From Naegleria gruberi (lineage: Eukaryota), in assembly GCA_000004985.1 (NCBI GenBank), contig GG738856.1: a stretch of 64,000 nucleotides of DNA. The stretch is one strand, 5' to 3'. The first letter of the stretch is position 1; every line of letters starts with the position of its first letter. Under the pieces are notes generated by a model. The model searched no databases and was not told where the DNA came from. It worked only from the letters and a program-made list of their open reading frames with translations. A program made the position numbers and the translations under genes. Positions 5,594 to 53,757 of this stretch are shown here, piece by piece.

Positions 5594-7477
5594 CTACAAG
5601 ATGAACAACTTGATCAACAATAGAGTCAATGAAAGAATCCACATATTTCCACCTCTGACAATTGAGAATGCTCCATTGACAACACCACTTGTTCCAGCAC
5701 CTCCCTTAGTTGTCTTTGGAACAATATCAAACAAACGATAAGTCTTTGAAACAACTGCATTAGCTACAGGATTAGCTGCCAAACTTCTAGTGTCTACATT
5801 TTCTTCCTTGAATAGACTTCTAACAGAGGTAGTATTTGTAGGTAAATAGGCAGATTCAATGGTAAGGAAACATCTTCTGTCGAGACCATCTCTGATTGCG
5901 AAGGGAAGATCGAATTGGAAAGCATAACTGGAAGTGGATGGAGGAGGAAGGGTAGCAGCATTTAAACCACCAGTGCTTTGAGGAACTCCATTGATATAGA
6001 TTTGAGTACTGAAATCAGAGTTGGAAGCGTTACGACAGTCGACATTGACAGGAATGGTTGTGAAATCAAGGAAACAACACATAATGACATTGTATGGGGA
6101 AATGGTCATGTAAGGAACACTAGGAGCACCTGGAACATCAACTCTGACATAGATAGTGTCAGTTGCCGCGAATTGAGTTTGAGCAACTGTCAAGGCAGCA
6201 TTTCCATAAGTTTGAGCTGTGGTATTATATTGTAAAACTTGAGTAATAGGAGGGTAAGGAACCACATATTGTAAAGAATATGAAATTGTACAACCAGTTC
6301 CATCAGGTGATAAGTAGGTCAGTACGTAATCACCATAAAAGTCAATTGGACCATTAATGACATTTGACTGCATTACAATTGTATATTGATAATAACCATT
6401 TGAAGTACCAGTGAATATAGCATCAGTAACATTAAAGAAATATGGTCCAGTAACTGTCCATGATGTGACAGGTGGTGCCAAAAGTGTCCAAACAATCATT
6501 CTAATTTCCAATTTACCCAAATCATTAACGAAAATTCTCTTTGGTTGAATAAAAGCAGTACAGTTATTACCTCCAGAACTAGATCCATCAGTAGTATTAA
6601 AACTGACACGTGTCACTTGAAGAACCAATGTCAAAATATAACGTTGTTGATAAATGACTTTGTAACAAGTTCCAGAAATTGGTGGAGCAACGTAAACATC
6701 ACCTCCTGTTGAAGTGGATGGCAATGGTGAATAAGTAGTAATCATATATTCAGCATACATCAATGCAACCAAATCAATGACACCTCCAGTTGAAATTTGT
6801 TGGACATTTGGATTTGACAAGTAACTTGACAATGGCAATGACAGGACATAATCACTATACCAGTAAGTGGAAGTTCCTGCATTATAGACAAATCCATCTC
6901 TGATTAAATCAGTTTGTTGACAAGCTGTCACTGCAGAAAGTCCAATGTTGAATTTGACTTCCGGAGTTGTGAAAACTCTTAAATACATTCTGATACGGAG
7001 TGTGACAATTAAGGTACTTGGATCGACACTGGCAAAGAAACCTGGACGTGGAGCACCAATGGTTCCTCTTCTGAAGGCTGTGAAAACAATATTTCCAATG
7101 GCGGTTGTACTAATATTGAATAATGGATCATAGACATTTAAGGTAAAAGTTGGGAGTTCTTGATTACCAAAATGGGAGAATAAAACAAGTCCGTTAGTGA
7201 CATCGGCAACTGTGAAAGTGTTGGTATCGAGATAGAAACCGAAGGTAGTGTTATAACGGAGGAAACGAGCATTGGTGACTGAAGTAACTGTGTAAATGAC
7301 ACGAGGTTCAACAATTCCATTGACAGTTGACTGTAAATTGGTTGTGGTAATGGTAACATTGTCGCCATTATAAACTTGCAATGAGTTGTTGATCACTGCT
7401 ATGGTTTGACATTGAACTGGCTTGTAAAAAACAAATAGAATAGCCAGAAGAAACAAATACGAAATGAAACGATTCAT
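5594..7477 (-). CDS. Secreted or surface glycoprotein, 627 aa, with an N-terminal signal peptide and a C-terminal hydrophobic tail that may be a GPI signal
   Basis: Signal peptide MNRFISYLFLLAILFVFYKPVQCQ. Many N-x-S/T sites. The C-terminus MWILSLTLLLIKLFIL is hydrophobic. No recognisable domain. Confidence 0.6.
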   Translation of the reverse strand: MNRFISYLFLLAILFVFYKPVQCQTIAVINNSLQVYNGDNVTITTTNLQSTVNGIVEPRVIYTVTSVTNARFLRYNTTFGFYLDTNTFTVADVTNGLVLFSHFGNQELPTFTLNVYDPLFNISTTAIGNIVFTAFRRGTIGAPRPGFFASVDPSTLIVTLRIRMYLRVFTTPEVKFNIGLSAVTACQQTDLIRDGFVYNAGTSTYWYSDYVLSLPLSSYLSNPNVQQISTGGVIDLVALMYAEYMITTYSPLPSTSTGGDVYVAPPISGTCYKVIYQQRYILTLVLQVTRVSFNTTDGSSSGGNNCTAFIQPKRIFVNDLGKLEIRMIVWTLLAPPVTSWTVTGPYFFNVTDAIFTGTSNGYYQYTIVMQSNVINGPIDFYGDYVLTYLSPDGTGCTISYSLQYVVPYPPITQVLQYNTTAQTYGNAALTVAQTQFAATDTIYVRVDVPGAPSVPYMTISPYNVIMCCFLDFTTIPVNVDCRNASNSDFSTQIYINGVPQSTGGLNAATLPPPSTSSYAFQFDLPFAIRDGLDRRCFLTIESAYLPTNTTSVRSLFKEENVDTRSLAANPVANAVVSKTYRLFDIVPKTTKGGAGTSGVVNGAFSIVRGGNMWILSLTLLLIKLFIL

Positions 7478-13650: not shown

Positions 13651-14291
13651 TTTTTCAAAATAATTATTTGATTTCTTGTTCTATAATTAAAACGTGTTGA
13701 TAGGATGCTTGGAGAGTAGATTTGCTGGATTATCAGATTTCACAACTAGAGTTCTTGTCGTGTTATTGATGTGAAGAAATATATATGATAAATTCTTCTT
13801 TTTTTGATCGGAATTGAAGTATTTGCAAACCTGAAATATAAAGCGAGAGCGAGTGAAGGCTTTTTTTTTGATGTTGAACACTAAATTATTTGTCTTCCTC
13901 AAAATGATGGAAAATTCGAATTATTTGAAACAAAATATTCAGTTCTACAAGACAAATTAAACATCAAGATTTAATTTTGTTCAAACAATTGTATCCAATA
14001 AAGCTATCTTTCGATTTTTTATTTTAAATAATTTAAAAGCTTGAGGAAGAGAAAACCTTTTGTGAATTAGATTCGAGAAAGATTCACAGTTCTTTATTCA
14101 AATATAAATAATTAATTAAATTTAACTCAATTTACTGTAATAAAACAAATTAACAATTTTTGTATGCTTTAGTCCAAAACAGTTCGTTTCAGTGTTTCGA
14201 CACCTGACAGAAAAGCTCAAAAATATTAACGTTAAAAAAAGTCAACAATCTTCTCTTTGAACCACTTCAAAAGAGGTTTCTTCCACCACAA

Positions 14292-17200
14292 GTGAACCAA
14301 TTCTTGGTTGTCTTCCAAACGCAAACAAGTCAACAACCACCAACAAGTGCACTCTACACTAACTCAAAGATTTCTTCATCAATTTTCATTATCCAATCTT
14401 TCATGATGTTATCATCATTATTCACCATCAATTTTAATAGGAAAACAATTCCTTCCAATCATCATCATCACCATGTAACTCTGCAGAGTGTGTTGAAAAG
14501 GTTTGGCTTTGCGTTGCTTGTTGTTGTACTTTTAATGATAATAACTCCCGCCTTTTCAACTTACACAACCGAAAAAACAAAACAAGAACATGATACGAAG
14601 GCTTTGCATAGGCTGGAAAAGTTTCATCAGCATCATCACGATGATTTAAATAACAATAATATTCTGCGAGTGGGAAGGAAAGGAAAGAATAGACTTTACC
14701 ATCATGATGAACGAAAGAAGAATCATCAAGGAAGAGGAGAAAAAGTTTTAAAACAACAACTTAGAAGTGTTTCCACTTCACAGGCTAGTGTTGTACCAAC
14801 ATTTTCATTACCTTCGGTGGTGAATTTATATGCCAATACGCCTCTGTATATTCCTATCATTTTGACTAACCAAGTAACATCAGGAACAACATTTGAATAT
14901 AGTTGGAAAGTTTACAACTCTACAAATGATATTACTTTAGCATCTGGAACTACACCAACAGTTTATATTGGAGAATATGATTTGGATCTTTTGAAAACAG
15001 TAACTTATTATCAGAATATTGTTGGATCAATATCATCACCTGTTTCTTCTTGGAATATTTATGTGGAGGTCACATCACGAGGAGATTATGGAATCATCAT
15101 TGCCCAATACAAAAAGACAATACCATTCAATTTGTACTTGTTGGGTGTACTTGCAACTATTGTGGGAGAGAATCAGGACCTGACCTTGATAACAGATCTG
15201 AAAACAAATCAAGTATTGAATGTTTCCATGTCGAAAATAACACCAAAAATTGAATATTATGATTCAGCAGTGAGTAAGATGGTAAAATCCAATGGACAAT
15301 GCTCGTGGACTTGTACCTACACTTTGATTTCTGGTTCAGTGAAGAATTGTTCCAACTTTGAAACATTTAGAACATTATCGAATAATAACAATTACTTACA
15401 AGTACTCATCCTTCTACTATGTCGAATCGGAAAAGTTTGAAATTCTTATACATAGCATACGTGTCAATGATTCAGTTCCAATCTTCCAAACAATTACATC
15501 CAACACTACCATGCAACAATATCATCCACCCAATCTTCCAATTACACTCACTCCAAATTTTGTCAATTACAACAATACTGTCAGAGTGGTGTTTTATTGG
15601 GAAGTTAATGGTTCACCATACCTCAAGCAAAACCTTACACTTGATTCCCTCTCTCCAAATAGCAAGTATGTGGCCAAGTGTGAAATTTACTTTCTGGGTA
15701 ATGTTCAGAGATACACATCAATGAGCTATACATTTTTCACAGCAAACAATATTACCAAGCCAAAATTCAATATTGTGACCAGTTCTGCTCTTGCATTTCA
15801 AACAAGAGTTCAAGTATCTGGCTATATTGGAGAATCAAGCAGAGGTCCACTTTGCATGACTGAAATCTTTGCAGAAACCACAAATTTTGGCAAAATCAGC
15901 TTGACCAATGGAAGACCTGTTTGCCTTCAATCGCTATTGCAAACCAGTACGGATGCAATTGCATTCCTTAGAATGCCACTCAGGAAAATCACTCTCTACG
16001 ATAATATCAAGCTCTCTTTTGTGGTAACAGATGGTATTGCACAGGAAACGTACTCTCTTACCACTTCTTCAAATCCTTCCACTATTTTGGATTACTTTTC
16101 ATCGTCCAATATTGTCAAATTAACAAGTAGTGTTTTAGACACGACATCAACTCTGTACGAAAACGATAGAACCTTGCTTCCTTCTCACATTGTTGTGGCT
16201 GCATCATTAATTATGAACTTTAAATCTTCTGCAGAAGAATCCAATTCAATGAATGTAGACTATTCAACACTGGCCTCTGGTTTAGGATCTTATCTATCGA
16301 GAATTTGTCCTTCTTCTTCAAACTATTCTCCATTGGAACAAAATTTGAATTGTATTGAAATAATTGGAAAATATGTATCAATTTCAGGTCTCACTACAAC
16401 ATTTGCTAGTACAACTCTCTCTCAGAGTATTAGTTCCAATATTGTTACATCTATATTTTATCAATTGAATCAACTCGTTTTCAATTCAATGAATGGACAA
16501 GGCACATTGCAAAATGGTGTGCTATTCCAAAAATTCTCCAGTGAAGGAGGTGAAACCTATGTCAGTCTCTTGATGGACATGCTACAAACAGCTTCCAGTT
16601 ATATTGCTCAAGATTATACTACAGTTCCAATCAATGGTACCTACGTTTCCATCAATAGTAATACTATAACTAGTACTATTTATGCAGTCTCCAAGATATT
16701 CCTCTCCAGTAGCTCCACTTCAACATTTAAATCATCAAGCTCACTCATTACCAAATTGGATTTATCTTCATTTCAATCAACAACATTATACTCACTCTCT
16801 TTGAATGGAGATGTTACTGTGCAGGTGCCACCTCTTTCATCTCTTCTTGGTAGTTTGACATCAAGCAGCTCAGTGGTCTTGTCACTTCAACTTTCACCTC
16901 AAAACAATGTCACAGATGCTGTCAATAGTACAATTATTTCTAGTAGAAAGGTTCAATTCCAGCTTTTGGATCCAAACACTGATAAGAAAATAGAGTTGAA
17001 AGATCTGAGTCAACCAATTACTCTTAAACTTCCAATCACCTATTCTTCCTTGTCAAATTCATCTCGTGACAGCTCCAAGTGTGTATTTTGGAGCGATTCT
17101 ACCAATGCATGGTCCAACACTGGTTGCGTTTTAAAACAAGCTACACAAAGTTATTTCTATTGTGAATGTAATCATACAACAACCTTTGCTGTGCTTTCTA

Positions 17201-19851
17201 CTACTCTCACAACTAGCTCAAATAATACTCAAATTCAAACAGCAGCATTCGATATGGTTCCACTTATTGTCATTTCCTCTGTAACTGGTGGTGTTATTCT
17301 AATCACTTTGGTTTTTTCTGGTGTTGTTCAAGCTTTTATTCATGTTTTGAAGAATGTTGACTCTGCTGAGTCAGGAGATTTATTCCTTCCAGCAGAATTC
17401 TTCCCAGTCAATGCCCAAATAGAAAAACCAAAAGAACCAGAAACAACAATAGAAGAGACAGAAAAGAAAGAAGAAAAAGAACCAAAGGTGAAGAAACGAT
17501 ACAAGGATCTTTCATTTGGTCTGAAAATTTTTGAATGTCTCAAAGAGTTTCACCCTGTTCTTGGTATTGTTTTTCCAAAGAAGTATTTCAAGAGTATTCA
17601 TATTAAGAGATTGGATCGTTTAATTATCCTAATGGATATTTTCATTACCACTAGTACTGTTAACGTTATTTTATTGTCAGTGAGCACTATTTCAAAAAAT
17701 TGGATATTCGTAATACCATCACTCATTTCGTTTGGCTGCTCTGTTATCAATCAAATACCAATTACATTATTATTTTGTAGGAAGCAAGCTATTTGGAAAG
17801 TTTGTGCCTATGGTTATAGCTGCGTGTTTGCGTTTGTTTGTTTGGTAATTTCTATTATTGCTAGTGCTGGAGTTTTTGTTTCCAATCAGTGGAATATGAA
17901 TATTTTGGACTGGCTGTATGCCACTATTCTAGGTGTTGCTTGGGACTTGATTGTTTTTAGAATTGTTTTGGCTTCCATTATTGCATTTTTGATTGAAGTT
18001 AAGGTTACTATTGACATGGGTATTGCAACATTCAGAAAAACTGATGAGGCAGAAAAAGAAGATCAACCATTACAAACAAAACGTATGGTAACTGTGCAAA
18101 ATAATGTAAGAATACCTATGCTATTTTCACAAAAGGAAAAGCCAAACATTCCTAAATTGAATCTCAAAGCAGTTGAAGGTGTTGCCACTCCAAAAGAAAA
18201 TCCTGTTAATGAGCTATCTTCAATGCATGCTTCGCCTACAGCAAGTGATACCACTTCCAGTAGTTCAGGTCTTGATTCCTATTTTTCACCACACAAAGCT
18301 AATCAACCAGCTGTGGAAGAAGCAAAAGAAACTTCTGCCAATGAGGAAGCCAAGACATCAAGTTCTGGTATGGAGCACTCGTCTGATAATTCAACTAGTA
18401 AGGAGGCAGAACAACAATGCATTACACCAGGATGTATTGTCGTTTTGGATTCTCCTGGCATTTCTCCAATATCTCCACTAATTCCAAAACAAGATCATGA
18501 TATGTCCTTTGTGGAGAAAGTCCAATTGAGAGATGAACTGAATATGAGCGAGGGTAAGGTTGATGAAGCCATCATCCCACCAGTGTTGGAGGATACCATG
18601 ATTATTGATGGAACTGAAAAGCAAGATAATGTGGAGGAAAGTACCAATGAACCTGTTCAAGATTCAGTTCCACAACAAGAAGAGGAAAAGCTAATAGAAC
18701 AAGCAGAGGATATCAATGAAGATTTGGAAATTGTGGAGCCAGCAATAGTTGAAACAGAACAAGTTCAACAACCTGTTGCTGAGGAAGTTTCTACAGAAGA
18801 GGTTCCAGAGGAAACAAGAGTATCTGATGAAGAAATTACCACCCCACATGAAGAGCCAGCAGTGGTCATTGTTGATGAAGTCACAAAGGAAGAAGTTGCA
18901 AATGTTGAACCAATTGTAACTGAATCTGTCCAAGAAACTACTCAATTGCCTGAAGTTGAACAAGTCACCGAAGCAACAATCGAACCAATAGAGCCAGTTA
19001 AGGAAGAATTACCAGAAATTGATACTACCAAGAAGAATCCTATCAAGATTTTGAAAGAAATTCTCAAAGAAAAGGATGTTCCTCCACCTGCTGCTGAAAG
19101 CCAAGAGCCAAAAGACAAATCAGAAAAGAATATTTTGGATTATATTGAACAAGTGACTGAACATGAAAAGAAGATTACATCTGAAAATTTGGAAAGTTTC
19201 ACATCAGAAATTCTTGAAAGATTATCTGGAAAATCAATTAGTGAAATTTTATTAATCTTGTCGGAGACTAAAGATCAACAATCAAGCAGCCAACAACAAT
19301 ACTCATCCCCACTTCGTACCAACTCACCAGTTGCAAGAAATGCTCTCCAAAAGAATACTCCAGGAAACAAATCAGCCAGAATGCTCAAGAGTGGTGGTAT
19401 TGAAATTGATAGATCAAGAAAACGTTCTCTCAGTTTCAACAAGTTGTATGGTATTGAAGAGGCTATGATCAAACCTCAAACAGATTTCTTTGATCAACTT
19501 CGTTTATATGTCAATCAAAATTATTCTGAAGAAGCCAAGGTTAAGGCATTGAATGAATTACTCTTCTTACAATGTATCTACCTCCACTATAAGATTATTT
19601 CAGTAACTCCTGAGGCAAGAAAGGAAATGGCAGAGCAAGTTGTTGCCACCTTTTTGAATGAAAAGGAACAATATCACATTAATATTGGTTTCTACAAGAG
19701 GGTACTTGCCTCATGTATTAGTGATGAAAATTTGAATGCCAACACATTTGAAAGAGCTTGTGAAATTATTGAAATTGCTTTAAAGCCTGTTATCAGCAAC
19801 TTTTTGAAGCATATTCAAGAAAAGCAAGCAAATGTAATGACAAGTGTTTAG
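14292..19851 (+). CDS. Large GPS/GAIN-motif multi-pass membrane receptor-like protein, which resembles adhesion-GPCR or polycystin. It is split into two overlapping ORFs by a frame break near 15343-15440.
   Basis: ORF 14292..15440 (signal or TM helix FGFALLVVVLLMIITPAFS, His-rich) and ORF 15358..19851 overlap in different frames. The extracellular S/T-rich N-glycosylated region ends in the GPS motif CVFWSDSTNAWSNTGCVLKQATQSYFYCECNHTTTFAVL. At least 5 TM helices follow, then an acidic E/P/V-rich tail. Confidence 0.7.
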
Positions 19852-19948
19852 GACTTTCAATAAACAAAACTAATGTTTAACAAGTTGAAATTTACCAAAT
19901 AGTTTTTCAAAGTTCATTAAAGCTTAATTATCAAATCCTAAATAAAAT

Positions 19949-22153
19949 TCAAACAAATTTATTGTAAAGATTGGATCTTTCAATTGTTTGTGCAGCCAAT
20001 TTCCAATCACTCAAGTCCAACGATAGGGCAACCTTACAATTGTTAACCATTTCACCTTTGTCCACAACGCCATCAACACTCTTTGTCAATACAATGGAAT
20101 ATAACAACTTTTGAATCTTTACACAACTCCAACCAAATAAATAGAACCACTTGTATGAGCACTTCCAATCAGAAATATAGTTATCCGAATCAGTTTCTTC
20201 CAATGGTGGTTCCCATTCTTGATAATATTGAATGAATTGTTTAAATCCTTCCGTTTGTAAAAAATTGGCTCCATCTCCACAAATTGTAATTGCAGTATCA
20301 ATGCCAAACGATGATTTGACAGCAGGTTGCCAATAATAATCTTCAGAAGTTAATTGATGAAGTGGTTTGCACGTTTCTGATAATTTGATTAATTCTCTCG
20401 GTTGTAAAAATTGAGAAATAACTCTCCAATCATAATACGAAAGTTTCACATTCTCATTAATCCTCAAAGATTTCTTAATTTCAACTGGAGGAGGTTCAAT
20501 AAACAGTTGCATTTCACTTCTTTCCTTTTCAAGTTTCATTTCAAATTCCTCTTTCGGATAACCAACAATAAATGCAAAATATTTCAACTTGTTCAAAACT
20601 TCCTTAACAGGAATCAAACTCGAAAAGATAAAATCCATAACATTAGATCTCCTTGAATTGTGAAGTTTTGCAATTTCTTCACACATTGGAATCCAAACAT
20701 TTGCTGAATTTGGCACATTTCCATAATAAATTTGTCTCATCAATTGATCTAAGTGTGTGAAAACTGGAATGACACTCATATTTCCATATTTCTTACAATC
20801 TTGACAGCAATATTCGTGAGCCATGTAGATTGTATCTCTAAATCTAGTAATTGTATCATTTTCGTACAAGTTTCTATTATATTCTGATAAATTCATGCAG
20901 AAAATGACATATTCGAAACCTTGTTCCATATATCGAGGATATTTCTTTCGTTCTGCTCTCTGACCAGCAACTAGACAGAAAGAAAGTTTGTGAGGTCCTA
21001 ATTGAAGTGTAAATTGTGAACATCCTGTCAATTTCTGTCTAGAAATGAAGAATAATCTCAAAATCAACTCTTCTTCCTCTTTCGTAAAACTATTCGAAGG
21101 TTTCTCCAATATTTCACACAAAGTTTCATGTGAAACTGATTTTAAAATTTCAATTCTATCAAAAATTGTTCCATGTTGTTGAGTTTGCAGCAGGTCATGA
21201 TATTTCCTGATTAATAATTTAACATCTTGCCTTTCAAAGAATAAAATTAAATTATTGTAAACTTGTTTTGTGATTAGTTTGAGAACAACTTTGCAATTCG
21301 AAGCCATTGGAATGTTATTCGAAAGTTTGTTCACTTGATCCACTGAAAATTCTCTATCCATTGGAATATCCTCAATTTCCTTTAAATCTTTCAAAATTTC
21401 CTGAATTATTTGTGGTTCAACATTGGCCAAAATTGGTGGAAGTTCATTAATGCACTGATTTGGAAATTTCAATTCGAATAACATTTGGTAGAATTGTTCT
21501 AACAAAATTATTGTATTGCTGAAAAAGAAATATAATGTAGAATAACTTTGATTTAAATCAAATGCTTGTTTTTCAATAACTTCAGGCTCCAAATTGTATC
21601 GAATAAGTTTCGACAAGGTCTTTCGTCCAGATTCTCCACTAGCAAGGAAAATAAATCTAATATGACTCTGATACACTTGCAATGCACTCGATTGCACTGA
21701 AAGTCTAGGTGAAGGAATCCCCGTAGAAAATCTTGGAGAAAGTGTTGGCGAAAGTTGACCAAGAAACCTTGGACTCATTGGCATTAATTGAACAGGAGAA
21801 AGGTTTCCAATACTACTATGTGAATTTCCACTACAACAATCACCAGATGCAACACTTCCTTCAACGCTGTTGAATGATTCGGCCGAGTGTAAAGTTGTTA
21901 AATTATTATTCGAAATTTCTCTTCTTCGGGGAGACCGCTGGTTTCGAATTTGATAAAAAGTTTCATGATCACTTCCACTGGCATTACTCTCTTGAATGGA
22001 TCTCAATTTAAGTAGTGCAACCTTCTTTTTAATGGAAGAAATCATGATTGACTTTTTTTTTGAAGATTTTCTCATACTTTCAATACGAAACTCTTCCAAA
22101 TTAGTTTCCATTCCATTCCTGAGGATTACACATATTGGCGGCATTTTCTTCAA
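19949..22153 (-). CDS. Heterotrimeric G-protein alpha-subunit homolog with degenerate nucleotide-binding motifs and a C-terminal extension bearing an F-box-like motif, 734 aa
   Basis: G-alpha signature blocks: FLASGESGRKT aligns with GAGESGKST; LTGCSQFTLQLGPHKLSFCLVAGQRAERKKY with TTGI...FDVGGQRSERKKW; VIFCMNLSEYNRNLYEND with IIFCVALSDYD; VIPVFTHLDQL with ILFLNKKDLF. The C-terminus contains LSYYDWRVISQFLQPRELIKLSETCKPL. Confidence 0.7.
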   Translation of the reverse strand: MKKMPPICVILRNGMETNLEEFRIESMRKSSKKKSIMISSIKKKVALLKLRSIQESNASGSDHETFYQIRNQRSPRRREISNNNLTTLHSAESFNSVEGSVASGDCCSGNSHSSIGNLSPVQLMPMSPRFLGQLSPTLSPRFSTGIPSPRLSVQSSALQVYQSHIRFIFLASGESGRKTLSKLIRYNLEPEVIEKQAFDLNQSYSTLYFFFSNTIILLEQFYQMLFELKFPNQCINELPPILANVEPQIIQEILKDLKEIEDIPMDREFSVDQVNKLSNNIPMASNCKVVLKLITKQVYNNLILFFERQDVKLLIRKYHDLLQTQQHGTIFDRIEILKSVSHETLCEILEKPSNSFTKEEEELILRLFFISRQKLTGCSQFTLQLGPHKLSFCLVAGQRAERKKYPRYMEQGFEYVIFCMNLSEYNRNLYENDTITRFRDTIYMAHEYCCQDCKKYGNMSVIPVFTHLDQLMRQIYYGNVPNSANVWIPMCEEIAKLHNSRRSNVMDFIFSSLIPVKEVLNKLKYFAFIVGYPKEEFEMKLEKERSEMQLFIEPPPVEIKKSLRINENVKLSYYDWRVISQFLQPRELIKLSETCKPLHQLTSEDYYWQPAVKSSFGIDTAITICGDGANFLQTEGFKQFIQYYQEWEPPLEETDSDNYISDWKCSYKWFYLFGWSCVKIQKLLYSIVLTKSVDGVVDKGEMVNNCKVALSLDLSDWKLAAQTIERSNLYNKFV

Positions 22154-22458: not shown

Positions 22459-23535
22459 TTATCCAATAATCTTGTCTTTCAAAGCGAGTCCTCCAATGAA
22501 GCCAACTCCATAGAATAAGAAGAGTGGATTGAATGCACCTAGGTTAGTAACAAATGGACCTGGACAAACACCAACAAGTCCCCAACCAATACCAAAGAGA
22601 GCTGCACCAGTAACAAGTTTCCAATCAACAACAGTAGATGTTGGGATATGTTGCTTACAACCCATACAAGTGAGTTCAGAACGAGAGGCACTTGGTACAA
22701 CGTACATGTTGAATACATACAGGTTTGGAAGAATAGCTCCCAAAGCAACACAAACAAGTGAAGGATCATAATTGTTTCCACCAAAATCAAAGAATCCAAG
22801 AACTTTCAATGGATTAGTCATTCCACTAAGTGCCAATCCAAGTCCAAATACAAATCCGTGCATAAATGGAAGATAATAGTCCAATTTTTGTTTGGTTGGT
22901 TCACTTAAATTCCAAATATTCATAATTATCAAAGCATAGGCAGAGAGAATCATAGCCAACAAGGACAATAAAGTCAAAGCATGTGAAGTTGTTGGATATT
23001 GAACGAATGGCAATAATGATGTATCCACTCCAACATTGACAATATTTCTAGAAACATAATCGGCACTTCCACCAAACAAAACCATCATCATGGTCACACC
23101 ACAGAAAACCATTGTGGCCACAAAACTTCTCTTGGACAAACGAGCCAAACCACAAATCATGTGTCCAGATGTGCAACCAGAACCAAGTTGTGTTCCAAAT
23201 CCAACAAACAATCCAGCCAATAAATAGAGTCCAACAGTTGATGGTGATGATAACAAGGAGAAGGCACTCGAAATTTTCATGAAATTATTAGGAGCTAAAT
23301 TCAAGGAGAAGGCAAACAATCCGGCCACTATCAGACCACAAAGATACAAAATCTTGTGAATCCATTCGGTATGATGATGAGTTGTAGCTTTGGCTGTTCC
23401 ATCAAAACATCCTCTCACAACACCACCAACAATACCCGACATGCCTGATATTCTTCCTTGAAGATAGGCATAGGCTCCAACAGATGCACCAATTAATAAG
23501 CCTCCAATAAGTGATTCAAATGGAGTAAATACCAT
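22459..23535 (-). CDS. YeeE/YedE-family putative thiosulfate or sulfur-compound transporter (TsuA-like), 358 aa, multi-pass membrane protein
   Basis: Two repeated sulfur-transport motifs: [27 protein letters not shown] and [20 protein letters not shown]. About 9 hydrophobic helices. The ORF is continuous. Confidence 0.75.
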
Positions 23536-51864: not shown

Positions 51865-53757
51865 TTATTTTTTGAATTCTTCCTTCTTGGTGGTGAGGAC
51901 TGTTGCCAAAAACTTGATATTCTTGTCTGTCTTTTCTTCTTGAATAGCCTTTTCAAATTTGCTGATTTCATTGTAAACTTCTCGTCCATGTTTTGTCTTT
52001 AACAAGGCAGAAATAATGTAGGATGCCTTCTTTTCGAAAATGTATTGTTTGCAATGGCCCTTGACAAGTTTGAAAACACCATCACAGAAACCTCCTTCAC
52101 TCTTCAAAATAATGCTTGACATGGTGGTCTTGACAAATATATTGTGGAAATCAAAATCTTTGGATTGTATCAATTCTAACAGCTTGGCTGAGATTGGTTC
52201 GAAATCTTTGTTTTCTGTTGAGAGGGCGAATGCTTCCTTAACGACAAGGTGGCCATTAGTATCAGCAATAAGGGTTGATAAATTTTCACAAATTCCAGTA
52301 ACAATAGATGGACCGAATGAGAGCAATAATTCTTGTCTAATCTTATCTTGACCCTTCTTGCTCAAAACACCATCTTTCATCATTTCCTTTCTCAATTCCA
52401 ATTCATCAAAGAGTTTTGTAGCTTGACTGTTACCAAAAACTTTAGAACTACCTGTGAGCAAGTAACGAATTGGTTTACAAGCTTGTTGGTGATGTAAGAG
52501 GTCGGATAAAACTTTTCTGAAATGCTTCAAAATCTTTTGATTCAAGAGAACAGTATCGTCAATACACTTGAACAAGTATGAAACGACAACTGAACCGAAA
52601 CAATCTTGAGAGGCCAAAACAGCCAAGTTATTGTGTGGATCACTGTTGGTGAGATCATCTTCCTTTTGCTTTTCTTCAGCACCTTCACCATCAACATTTT
52701 CTTCTGCAGAACCAGCAACATCAACCTTAGATCTAGACAAACTTCTGACAATGAGCTTTCTTTCCTTTTCGTTGGCATATGCAATACAGAGGAGGGAAAT
52801 CTTACAACCGAGGAGAGTATGGAGGATGAGTGGAATAGCACCAGCTTCAATCAAATCGTAGAGTGTGAATTTAACATGTGAACTGTCACCACATTCAAAA
52901 ACGTCAATAATGAGCTTTTGAACAACGGCCAAATCGAAGAGTCTCTTTTGGAGAGCGTTTTGAACAATCTTGGTCAAATCTGAGACAATGGTCAAAACAG
53001 CACCTGTCTTGATATTGTTATCGAGAGAATCCTTAAGAGAGTCATTCATCTTGCTTTCTTCATTAGTCCACAAGAAATCTGAGCCATAGAATTCTTGAAC
53101 GAAGAATCTCTTTTCAGTATAGTTCCACAATTCAGTGTAGCAATAGTCGAGAACTTCTCCTGAAAATCTTTGTTGAATCATTGTCTTCATATTTCCAAAG
53201 AAAACTTCCTTATAAAATTCGAGTCTTTCCTTTTGATCCTTAATCTTAACTACGTGATATTTCATAACCTTCATTACTAATTTGTGTCCATAAATATTTG
53301 AGGATAAAACCTTAAGATCACCCTTGATTTCTTTAATAACAATATTTCTCAATTTTTCATTTCCGTACTTGAGAACAGCTTGTAACAAACGACTCATATC
53401 GGAACGAAGTGATAAACTACTAATAGATCCTTCAATATATTCTAAAGCTGTTTCGAGAATGTCAATCTTTTTACTTCTCTTCTTTTCTCCCAATTGCAAA
53501 AATTCGTCAAGAGCTCTCTTAGCCATTGTTGTACTATCTTCACGCTTCAACTTCTTTTTAAAATCAGAAATACCACCACCATCTTTTCTATTTTCCGATG
53601 ATGTTTCAGAGTGCAATCTCTTTGTTGGGGCATTCTTCTTAAAACCGCCTTCACTCTTATTAAATCCCTTCTTATTATTATTAGATGATGAGAAAGAAGG
53701 CTTCTTAAAATCCTTTTTACCGCCCGATGATGGCTTGCCTGTATTTTTGTTATTCAT
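51865..53757 (-). CDS. Pumilio-repeat protein of the nucleolar PUM3/Puf-A/Puf6 type, 630 aa, with a K/S-rich N-terminus
   Basis: Puf-like units such as DMSRLLQAVLKYGNEKLRNIV and NIYGHKLVMKVMKY. A basic N-terminal tail is typical of nucleolar Puf-A. Confidence 0.55.
   Translation of the reverse strand: MNNKNTGKPSSGGKKDFKKPSFSSSNNNKKGFNKSEGGFKKNAPTKRLHSETSSENRKDGGGISDFKKKLKREDSTTMAKRALDEFLQLGEKKRSKKIDILETALEYIEGSISSLSLRSDMSRLLQAVLKYGNEKLRNIVIKEIKGDLKVLSSNIYGHKLVMKVMKYHVVKIKDQKERLEFYKEVFFGNMKTMIQQRFSGEVLDYCYTELWNYTEKRFFVQEFYGSDFLWTNEESKMNDSLKDSLDNNIKTGAVLTIVSDLTKIVQNALQKRLFDLAVVQKLIIDVFECGDSSHVKFTLYDLIEAGAIPLILHTLLGCKISLLCIAYANEKERKLIVRSLSRSKVDVAGSAEENVDGEGAEEKQKEDDLTNSDPHNNLAVLASQDCFGSVVVSYLFKCIDDTVLLNQKILKHFRKVLSDLLHHQQACKPIRYLLTGSSKVFGNSQATKLFDELELRKEMMKDGVLSKKGQDKIRQELLLSFGPSIVTGICENLSTLIADTNGHLVVKEAFALSTENKDFEPISAKLLELIQSKDFDFHNIFVKTTMSSIILKSEGGFCDGVFKLVKGHCKQYIFEKKASYIISALLKTKHGREVYNEISKFEKAIQEEKTDKNIKFLATVLTTKKEEFKK

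What the first reader, a model, noticed from the sequence alone, without database searches (positions are those of the whole stretch)
14292..19851. Large GPS/GAIN-motif receptor-like membrane protein with a frame break that may mark a pseudogene, an error or an unconventional intron
The GPS autoproteolysis motif CxC.HLTxFAV (here CECNHTTTFAVL) sits immediately before TM1. This is the adhesion-GPCR and polycystin arrangement, and is unusual outside animals and their relatives. The upstream 382-aa ORF (signal or TM plus His-rich region) and the 1497-aa ORF overlap in different frames at 15343-15440. I could not find a GT-AG intron that restores the frame, although GTGAGT at 15270 is a good donor.
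Basis: partly seen in the sequence, partly recalled or inferred. Interest (0 to 1): 0.5.

Follow-up and report, generated by a model that had tools for sequence, protein, structure and literature searches.

The report
Broken GAIN-domain membrane receptor gene, Naegleria
The two overlapping reading frames are one Naegleria gruberi gene for a large surface protein with an animal-type GAIN/GPS self-cleavage domain ahead of five membrane helices, and it is broken by a short frame-shifting deletion, not by an intron.

Summary
The window is Naegleria gruberi NEG-M nuclear DNA. ORF1 (14292-15440, frame 0) and ORF2 (15343-19851, frame 1) overlap as described, and CECNHTTTFAVL is a true GPS motif (Pfam PF01825, E 5e-12), about 25 residues before TM1. 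A low-confidence AlphaFold model of the 370 residues before TM1 matches only adhesion-GPCR GAIN domains in the PDB.

The two ORFs are one gene. The N. fowleri and N. lovaniensis orthologues are single uninterrupted exons that cover both. Between conserved anchors N. gruberi is 68 and 74 nt shorter than they are (both 3n+2). Both orthologues carry AATT at each edge of the missing block, and N. gruberi keeps one AATT (15390-15393). This is the scar of a microhomology deletion. It removes a conserved Cys plus about 22 residues and shifts the frame. No GT-AG intron fits the homology.

The locus is unannotated: the flanking genes have consecutive accessions, EFC47035 and EFC47036. Whether the lesion is a true null allele or pseudogene, or a cloning or assembly artefact, needs reads.

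The family has a GAIN domain, five TM helices, an acidic tail and a C-terminal helical domain. It turned up only in Heterolobosea. It is neither an adhesion GPCR nor a polycystin-1. Interest is modest.

The parts
14403..15389 (+). 5' part of the gene, frame 0. Holds the first ATG (14403), the signal/anchor hydrophobic segment (14502-14558), the His-rich stretch and the first ectodomain modules, including CSWTC (15300-15314) and KNCSNF (15342-15359).
   Evidence: tblastn hits of N. lovaniensis, metagenome and Willaertia homologues cover 14772/14796-15389 in this frame and all end at 15389. Nucleotide-level conservation with N. fowleri and N. lovaniensis runs through AAT AAT AAC.
15390..15393 (+). 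AATT, the inferred deletion scar and the point where the frame switches from 0 to 1.
   Evidence: Both orthologues have AATT at each edge of the block missing here (AAT|TGT on the left, GG|A ATT on the right). N. gruberi reads AAC AATT ACT TAC. The anchor-to-anchor distance is 73 nt here, against 141 and 147 nt. The best HMM-scoring join is at 15390.
15391..19851 (+). 3' part of the gene, frame 1, from ITYKYSSFYYVESE to the stop codon.
   Evidence: Single tblastn hits to P0007 and P0008 span 15358/15364 to 19260/19833. The exhaustive phmmer search gave 41% identity over 914 aa to N. lovaniensis.
15340..15342 (+). TGA that closes frame 1 upstream. It blocks the 70-nt GTGAGT(15270)...AG(15339) intron.
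15438..15440 (+). TGA that ends the out-of-frame tail of ORF1. The tail YLQVLILLLCRIGKV has no homology.
16102..17199 (+). GAIN domain. Helical subdomain A is about 16102-16605 and beta-sandwich subdomain B about 16618-17199.
   Evidence: The AlphaFold2 secondary-structure pattern is helices followed by about 13 strands (mean pLDDT 54.6). The ten best Foldseek hits in the PDB are all adhesion-GPCR GAIN domains, E 1e-6 to 2e-4 over about 350 columns, and the next hit has E 0.2.
17077..17196 (+). GPS motif KCVFWSDSTNAWSNTGCVLKQATQSYFYCECNHTTTFAVL. It keeps the four Cys, the two Trp and the triad H(-2) T(-1) T(+1) at 17173-17181, followed by a tethered-agonist-like TTFAVL.
   Evidence: Pfam PF01825 E 5.2e-12. 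Residue-by-residue alignments to ADGRF1 and ADGRL3.
17257..18000 (+). Membrane region with five predicted TM helices: about 17257-17349, 17620-17682, 17698-17775, 17800-17880 and 17902-18000. A conserved 95-aa basic cytosolic loop (RYKDLSFG..CLKEFHP..KRLDRL, 17497-17622) follows TM1.
   Evidence: Hydropathy, AlphaFold helices and the positive-inside rule, with K+R of 19/3/6 in the inside loops and 0/1/0 in the outside loops. Conserved in four homologues. No PDB sequence relative at E<=10.
18001..19443 (+). Acidic, Ser/Thr/Pro-rich cytoplasmic tail, probably disordered.
   Evidence: Composition over 481 aa: 98 D+E, 50 K+R, 120 S+T+P.
19444..19824 (+). Conserved C-terminal helical domain of unknown type (NELLFLQ.IYLHYK ... 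FERACEI.EI.LKP).

Best explanation
The interval 14403-19851 is a single, normally intronless gene of Naegleria gruberi.

The intact protein would have this layout:
- an N-terminal signal or anchor segment;
- about 480 residues of beta-rich ectodomain with repeated [FY]xW / CxWxC modules;
- a complete GAIN domain whose GPS motif ends about 25 residues before TM1;
- five TM helices, N-terminus outside and C-terminus inside;
- a long acidic cytoplasmic tail;
- a conserved C-terminal helical domain.

In this assembly the gene is inactivated by one deletion of 3n+2 nt, about 68-74 nt judged against the orthologues. The deletion lies between two AATT microhomologies and leaves a single AATT at 15390-15393. 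It removes the fourth conserved cysteine of an ectodomain module plus about 22 residues. It also shifts the frame from 0 to 1, so translation from the real start ends at 15438.

I infer that the lesion is genuine in the sequenced DNA: a very recent pseudogene, or one null allele of a non-haploid laboratory strain. The reason is that a microhomology-flanked 70-nt loss is not a base-calling error.

For intact family members (N. fowleri, N. lovaniensis, Willaertia) the inferred mechanism is an adhesion-type surface receptor. The GAIN domain holds, and may autocleave, a TxF[AS][VT]L strand that is tethered to a lineage-specific 5TM domain. Cleavage competence is uncertain, because the -1 residue is Thr rather than the usual Leu.
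For: - Organism: five neighbouring ORFs are exact matches to N. gruberi GenBank proteins.
- One gene: homologues from N. lovaniensis (2079 aa), an environmental heterolobosean (1802 aa) and Willaertia (1965 aa) align to ORF1 in frame 0 (E 9e-31 for P0007) and to ORF2 in frame 1. The N. fowleri orthologue (2122 aa) is also intact.
- No intron in the orthologues: the N. fowleri and N. lovaniensis genes are uninterrupted ORFs of 6369 and 6240 nt.
- Deletion: the distance between conserved anchors is 73 nt here, 141 nt in N. fowleri and 147 nt in N. lovaniensis. The differences, 68 and 74 nt, are both 2 mod 3. AATT sits at both edges of the missing block in both orthologues, and once at the N. gruberi junction.
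- The invariant Cys of SNSNC / SSNNC / SESNC is absent.
- Homologue-HMM scores: plain frameshift joins at 15357-15396 give 152-155 bits, with the best at 15390. The best intron of plausible size gives 135.7 bits.
- Only one lesion: ORF2 is open for 1497 codons and collinear with the homologues to within a few residues of the C-terminus.
- Unannotated: EFC47035 (12004-13650) and EFC47036 (19952-22144, minus strand) are consecutive accessions. No N. gruberi protein appeared among 1.84 billion representatives.
- Domains: GPS, GAIN fold, GPS residue alignment, 5TM topology.
- L837A at the -1 position impaired cleavage in latrophilin-1 (PMC3321182).
Against: - No reads, traces or transcripts were available, so a cloning or assembly artefact cannot be excluded.
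- A perfectly intact 4.5-kb downstream ORF is what an artefact would also give.
- An in-frame lineage-specific shortening plus an independent 1-nt error would produce the same sequence.
- The HMM score plateau (15357-15396) does not by itself pin the junction. The exact breakpoint rests on nucleotide alignment to species that are only about 41% identical at the protein level.
- The GAIN and 5TM calls rest on a low-confidence model (mean pLDDT 54.6) built from four sequences.
- Autoproteolysis and any signalling role are inferred, not shown.
Confidence: 0.6

Rival explanations
1. Sequencing, cloning or assembly artefact. The real N. gruberi gene is intact, and the reference lacks about 70 nt, or has an in-frame natural shortening plus a 1-nt error.
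For: ORF2 stays open for 1497 codons and ORF1 is open from its start to the junction, so there is exactly one lesion. AT-rich eukaryotic inserts can suffer microhomology deletions in E. coli clones (general knowledge, not tested here).
Against: No homopolymer lies at the junction. The only run of 4 or more bases is A4 at 15431, where a join scores 16 bits worse. The difference from the orthologues is about 70 nt rather than 1 nt. A consensus from multi-fold Sanger coverage should not fix a deletion confined to one clone (my own knowledge of the assembly, not verified here).
Confidence: 0.27
2. A conventional or unconventional spliceosomal intron restores the frame, for example GTGAGT at 15270 to an AG at 15402, or GTAAGA at 15274 to the AG at 15370.
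For: GT-AG pairs of plausible length that restore one long ORF do exist: 133, 97, 121 and 64 nt. GTGAGT and GTAAGA are good donor sequences.
Against: Each candidate removes residues conserved in all homologues, namely CxWxC and/or KNCSNF..SN.N. They score 135.7 bits or less, against 154.9 for a plain join. Frame 0 homology runs to 15389 and frame 1 homology from 15391, which leaves 1 nt between them. The orthologues have no intron anywhere in the gene. The 70-nt GTGAGT...AG(15339) intron would place TGA first in exon 2.
Confidence: 0.03
3. The frame break is functional. Either a programmed +1 ribosomal frameshift operates near 15390 or at the GTT-TGA-A stop, or there are two separately expressed products: a secreted or anchored N-terminal protein, and a GAIN-5TM protein from an internal start.
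For: Both ORFs are intact. A +1 slip at GTT TGA A (15435-15441) would land in the ORF2 frame.
Against: A slip at the stop would replace the conserved ITYKYSSFYYVESE block with unrelated sequence, and scores 138.7 bits against 154.9. No known +1 stimulatory context lies at 15390. The first Met of ORF2 (15511) has no signal peptide ahead of an 860-residue ectodomain. Three relatives encode one polypeptide. The conserved Cys is lost in every such scenario.
Confidence: 0.04

Closest known systems
Naegleria lovaniensis C9374_000688 (XP_044552516, UniProt A0AA88KNX9, 'GAIN-B domain-containing protein') and its N. fowleri orthologue (2122 aa)
   Same: Full-length collinear orthologues: 41% identity over 914 aa of ORF2, plus the ORF1 region. 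They share the module order, the GPS sequence CxCNHT[TS], the conserved TM1-TM2 loop, the five TM helices and the C-terminal domain.
   Different: They are intact single exons. The N. gruberi copy lacks 68-74 nt, which includes a conserved Cys, and is frame-shifted.
Adhesion GPCRs (class B2; e.g. latrophilin/ADGRL, BAI/ADGRB, ADGRF1)
   Same: A GAIN domain with its GPS motif directly before TM1. The four Cys, the two Trp, His(-2), Thr(+1) and a TxFAVL tethered-agonist-like strand are conserved.
   Different: Five predicted TM helices rather than seven. No 7tm_2 Pfam match and no sequence relative of the TM region in the PDB. The -1 residue is Thr instead of Leu. GAIN-7TM linkage is reported to be restricted to Holozoa (PMC12716839).
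Polycystin-1 family (PKD1, PKD1L1-3, PKDREJ, sea-urchin REJ)
   Same: A large glycosylated ectodomain, then GAIN/GPS, then a multi-pass TM region that is not a 7TM GPCR. A sizeable cytosolic loop follows TM1.
   Different: No PLAT/LH2 domain in the TM1-TM2 loop, no REJ match and no PKD-channel domain. Five TM helices, not eleven.
Non-holozoan GAIN-domain proteins of Dictyostelium discoideum and Tetrahymena thermophila (Arac et al. 2012)
   Same: GAIN domains with conserved GPS motifs in unicellular eukaryotes far from animals (PMC3321182).
   Different: Those proteins were not compared directly here. The heterolobosean family has its own TM and C-terminal domains. Full-length relatives turned up only in Naegleria, Willaertia and one metagenome contig.

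Membership tests
GPS/GAIN-domain proteins | Significant match to the GPS motif model, with the canonical Cys and Trp pattern | tested here: met
   Pfam PF01825 E 5.2e-12, 46.5 bits against a cutoff of 22.5. CVFW...WS..GC...C.CNH aligns to ADGRF1 and ADGRL3. The GPS model also hits all three homologues tested.
GPS/GAIN-domain proteins | A complete GAIN fold of about 320 residues: helical subdomain A plus 13-strand subdomain B that ends in the GPS | tested here: met
   The AlphaFold model shows helices and then about 13 strands. The ten best Foldseek hits in the PDB are all GAIN domains, E 1e-6 to 2e-4 over about 350 columns. Caveat: mean pLDDT is 54.6 and TM-scores are low.
GPS/GAIN-domain proteins | Autoproteolysis triad H-L|T/S (general base, aliphatic -1, nucleophile +1) and actual cleavage | tested here: inconclusive
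   His(-2) and Thr(+1) are present. Position -1 is Thr in every family member, N. fowleri included. L837A impaired cleavage in CL1 (PMC3321182). Cleavage itself cannot be tested with these tools.
Adhesion GPCR (class B2) | Seven-TM secretin/adhesion-type domain (Pfam 7tm_2) after the GAIN domain | tested here: not met
   No 7tm_2 hit at E<=1. Five hydrophobic helices. A profile of the TM region finds no PDB chain at E<=10.
Polycystin-1 / PKD1-like | PLAT/LH2 domain in the first cytoplasmic loop, REJ module upstream of the GPS, and an 11-TM region with a PKD-channel domain | tested here: not met
   No PLAT, REJ or PKD_channel Pfam hits at E<=1 in this protein or in three homologues. Five TM helices only. 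No PDB sequence match to the PKD1 or PKD1L3 chains.
RGS-domain receptor (7TM-RGS-like), considered for the C-terminal domain | Significant sequence or fold match to the RGS box | tested here: not met
Spliceosomal intron at the frame break | GT-AG (or similar) boundaries whose removal gives a product collinear with the homologues | tested here: not met
   All frame-restoring GT-AG pairs delete conserved residues and score at least 19 bits below a plain join. The orthologues are intronless.

The most novel reading that the evidence does not exclude
Heterolobosea carry a lineage-specific receptor family in which a complete GAIN domain, with a conserved tethered-agonist-like TxF[AS][VT]L strand, is fused to a 5TM domain. 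That 5TM domain is unrelated in sequence to adhesion-GPCR 7TM and to polycystin TM regions, and it is followed by a conserved cytoplasmic helical domain. If the family works by GAIN-controlled exposure of the tethered strand, then coupling of a GAIN module to a membrane transducer arose, or was present, far outside Holozoa and independently of the 7TM fold. The N. gruberi NEG-M copy would be a natural null allele of that receptor.
Probability: 0.35. Interest if true: 0.5.

Novelty: new variant of a known kind. Interest (0 to 1): 0.3.

Why it matters
For genome annotation, a 6.3-kb stretch of the N. gruberi reference that looks gene-free holds a large receptor gene. It was probably dropped because of a single frame-shifting deletion. 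The lesion can be stated to the base, so it is easy to test by PCR in NEG-M, its parent NEG and wild isolates.

For biology, current accounts place the GAIN-7TM fusion in stem holozoans, and GAIN domains alone are known in a few protists. A conserved GAIN-5TM architecture in Naegleria, including the pathogen N. fowleri, and in Willaertia adds a third kind of GAIN-coupled membrane protein. It offers a distant outgroup for asking what the GAIN domain and its tethered strand did before adhesion GPCRs existed.

None of this is a surprise of the first order. The domain call is already in UniProt for the N. lovaniensis orthologue, and the frame break itself is an ordinary mutation or artefact.

Tried and rejected
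- The search for homologous proteins with a frameshift-corrected 1098-aa query and with the GPS-TM region returned nothing. The word index was probably swamped by Ser/Thr-rich low complexity. Only the exhaustive representative search and a search seeded with the N. lovaniensis protein worked.
- Exact-product look-ups for ORF1 and ORF2 from several ATGs found nothing on record.
- Two metagenome scans gave nothing: a degenerate DNA pattern for YSSFYYVESEKFE and a profile-based locus search. No second N. gruberi-like copy of the junction could be examined.
- The segment missing at the junction is not encoded elsewhere in the window. The window holds no paralogue.
- RGS-like reading of the C-terminal domain: rejected or unsupported.
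- Functional link to the adjacent G-alpha-like gene (EFC47036): not supported. In N. fowleri and N. lovaniensis no G-alpha family is on record for the genes called downstream of the orthologue; an RdRP-domain gene lies there.
- Homopolymer error at A4 (15431-15434): rejected by homology scoring.
- +1 slip at the ORF1 stop: rejected by homology scoring.
- The afdb50 fold library was unavailable.
- A literature search for 'GAIN domain' together with Naegleria found no paper.


Full report
**Origin of the window.** Five neighbouring ORFs are exact matches to GenBank proteins of Naegleria gruberi NEG-M, on a 602-kb scaffold: EFC47033, EFC47034, EFC47035, EFC47044 and EFC47046. GC content is 31-36% throughout. 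The gene density and the Asn/Gln/Ser-rich proteins fit this heterolobosean amoeba.

**Check of the observation.** The ORF table and a three-frame translation confirm the layout.
- ORF1 is 14292-15440 in frame 0, with its first ATG at 14403.
- ORF2 is open from 15343, just after a TGA at 15340-15342, and runs to 19851 in frame 1.
- ORF1 contains the hydrophobic segment FGFALLVVVLLMIITPAFS and His runs.
- GTGAGT is at 15270.
- CECNHTTTFAVL is at 17161-17196.
- Pfam GPS (PF01825) matches 17077-17196 with E 5.2e-12 and 46.5 bits, against a gathering score of 22.5. It is the only Pfam family above its gathering score in either ORF.
- The first TM helix begins about 25 residues after the motif.

One detail needs amending. 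Frame-restoring GT-AG pairs do exist, at 15270-15402, 15274-15370, 15282-15402 and 15339-15402. The 70-nt GTGAGT...AG(15339) intron fails because exon 2 would open with TGA.

**The two ORFs are one gene.** An exhaustive phmmer search of 1.84 billion cluster representatives with the first 920 residues of ORF2 gave only three full-length relatives. By cluster look-up they are:
- P0007, N. lovaniensis C9374_000688 (2079 aa, 41% identity, named 'GAIN-B domain-containing protein' by UniProt);
- P0008, an unnamed protein from a JGI metagenome contig (1802 aa);
- P0009, a Willaertia magna protein (1965 aa).

A search seeded with P0007 added the N. fowleri orthologue P0161 (2122 aa). In all of them the ORF2 match starts at residue 312 or later (312-336 in P0007 and P0008, 721 in P0009). 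tblastn of these proteins against the window places their upstream parts on ORF1 in frame 0, for example P0007 residues 84-320 on 14775-15389 with E 9e-31. The rest falls on ORF2 in frame 1. The N. fowleri and N. lovaniensis genes are uninterrupted ORFs of 6369 and 6240 nt that translate directly to the database proteins. The gene is therefore ancestrally intronless.

**Nature of the frame break.** All three frame-0 tblastn hits stop at 15389. The frame-1 hits begin at 15358 to 15451. A protein alignment shows that about 25 residues present in every homologue are absent from N. gruberi at that point. They include the invariant Cys of SNSNC / SSNNC / SESNC.

At the nucleotide level, the distance between the K of KNC and the YY of YY.ESE is 141 nt in N. 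fowleri, 147 nt in N. lovaniensis and 73 nt here. The differences, 68 and 74 nt, are both 2 mod 3. Both orthologues read ...AAT|TGT (Asn-Cys) at the left edge of the missing block and GG|A ATT ACx TAT (Gly-Ile-Thr-Tyr) at its right edge, so AATT occurs at both edges. N. gruberi reads AAC AATT ACT TAC, with AATT at 15390-15393. That is what a deletion between two 4-nt microhomologies would leave. One event explains both the missing segment and the frame shift from 0 to 1.

As a quantitative check, I built an HMM from the three homologues first found (P0007, P0008, P0009) and scored every possible reconstruction.
- Plain one-nucleotide-skip joins anywhere in 15357-15396 score 152-155 bits, with the best at 15390.
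- The best GT-AG intron of plausible size, 15339-15402 (64 nt), scores 135.7 bits.
- The 15274-15370 intron (97 nt) scores 125.0 bits.
- The GTGAGT-15270 models score below 123.6 bits.
- A join at the only homopolymer (A4 at 15431) scores 138.7 bits, the same as a +1 slip at the ORF1 stop.

The missing peptide is not encoded elsewhere in the window. The intron, homopolymer-error and stop-codon-slip readings are therefore rejected.

**Genuine lesion or artefact?** This cannot be settled without reads.
- In favour of a genuine lesion: its size, its microhomology signature and the absence of a homopolymer.
- In favour of an artefact, or of a very recent event: it is the only defect, and ORF2 is open for 1497 codons and collinear with its homologues almost to the C-terminus.

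I put about 0.6 on a real deletion, either a recent pseudogene or one null allele of a non-haploid laboratory strain. I put about 0.27 on a cloning or assembly artefact.

The locus is missing from the annotation. EFC47035 (12004-13650) and EFC47036 (19952-22144, minus strand) are consecutive GenBank and EukProt entries. No N. gruberi protein matched ORF2 in the exhaustive search.

**What the intact protein is.** An AlphaFold2 model of 16090-18102 (four-sequence alignment, mean pLDDT 54.6) shows a run of helices, then about 13 strands, then TM helices. Despite the low confidence, the ten best Foldseek matches in the PDB are all GAIN domains of adhesion GPCRs: BAI2, BAI3, GPR110, latrophilin-1 and -3, CELSR1, GPR126 and CD97. 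Their E-values are 1e-6 to 2e-4 over about 350 columns, and the next hit has E 0.2.

Sequence alignment to ADGRF1 and ADGRL3 shows the four Cys, the two Trp, His(-2) and Thr(+1) in place, followed by TTFAVL where adhesion GPCRs have the TxFAVLM tethered agonist. Position -1 is Thr instead of Leu. This holds in all family members: CNHTTL, CNHTTT and CNHTSI in P0007, P0008 and P0009, and CNHTTL in N. fowleri. In latrophilin-1 the Leu side chain sits in a hydrophobic pocket, and L837A impaired cleavage (PMC3321182). Autoproteolysis is therefore plausible but unproven.

Three lines of evidence agree on five TM helices with the N-terminus outside and the C-terminus inside:
- hydropathy;
- the AlphaFold helices;
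- the positive-inside rule, with K+R of 19/3/6 in the predicted cytoplasmic loops and 0/1/0 in the external ones.

The TM region and the 95-residue TM1-TM2 loop (RYKDL..CLKEFHP..KRLDRL) are well conserved within the family. They have no Pfam match and no PDB sequence relative even at E<=10. There is no 7tm_2, PLAT, REJ or PKD-channel signal. The protein therefore resembles adhesion GPCRs and polycystin-1 only through its GAIN module, and it fails the defining TM-domain tests for both.

**Comparison with what is known.** GAIN domains outside animals are already documented for Dictyostelium and Tetrahymena (PMC3321182). A recent survey places the GAIN-7TM fusion in stem holozoans and treats GAIN itself as older (PMC12716839). 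No paper in the searchable library links GAIN domains with Naegleria. The N. lovaniensis orthologue already carries an automatic GAIN-B label. Beyond the three heterolobosean relatives, the other 278 hits of the exhaustive search match only the GAIN-B/GPS/TM1 stretch. Two of the three I looked up come from animals, Darwinula and a Branchiostoma cluster that holds an ADGRG2-like member; the third is an unnamed metagenome protein.

The finding is best filed as a lineage-specific architectural variant of a known domain family, GAIN plus 5TM. In N. gruberi it is present as a broken, unannotated copy.

**Verdict.** The frame break is an ordinary mutation or artefact, and its position and likely mechanism are now defined. 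The domain architecture is mildly novel. Interest 0.3.

Noticed in passing
window 19949-22153 (- strand): The convergent neighbour, 98 nt from the stop of the GAIN gene, is EFC47036/D2V7P2. It is a divergent G-alpha subunit (Pfam PF00503, E 2e-30) with an altered P-loop (LASGESGRKT) and a weak, sub-threshold F-box-like match near its C-terminus. No G-alpha family is on record for the neighbours called in N. fowleri or N. lovaniensis, so no functional link is inferred.
   Followed up: partly
window 15358-15389: These 32 nt resemble the homologues in both frames. Frame 0 reads FETFRTLSNNN against FESFNTFSNSN. Frame 1 reads LKHLEHYRIIT against IINVDHFLVG-IT. Nucleotide alignment favours frame 0. 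The frame-1 resemblance looks like coincidence, but it explains the broad HMM score plateau.
   Followed up: partly
window 13651-19948: No CDS is annotated across this 6.3-kb stretch of an otherwise gene-dense scaffold. The flanking genes have consecutive GenBank and EukProt numbers.
   Followed up: yes
window 5594-7477 (- strand): A 627-aa ORF with a signal peptide, a Cadherin_3-like match (PF16184, E 2e-8) and a hydrophobic C-terminal tail. The exact ORF product is not in the protein collection, so the annotated model, if there is one, differs.
   Followed up: no
L001 (ENA metagenome assembly ERZ929261, PRJEB11402, contig k127_388450): A 2-kb metagenome contig encodes a protein identical to N. 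gruberi EFC47044 (window 51865-53757). N. gruberi-like DNA is therefore present in that sample, or contaminates it.
   Followed up: no
L003 14313-19335 (- strand), N. lovaniensis: The gene model downstream of the orthologue is a 1573-aa product that combines RdRP, Sulf_transp and DUF6691 families. In N. gruberi the Sulf_transp/DUF6691 protein is a separate 358-aa ORF (22459-23535). In N. fowleri the RdRP gene is a separate model. The N. lovaniensis model is probably an erroneous fusion.
   Followed up: no
P0009 residues 147-415 (Willaertia magna): The Willaertia family member carries an N-terminal RCC1-repeat beta-propeller (PF00415, E 2e-10) ahead of the shared ectodomain. The Naegleria proteins lack it.
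   Followed up: no
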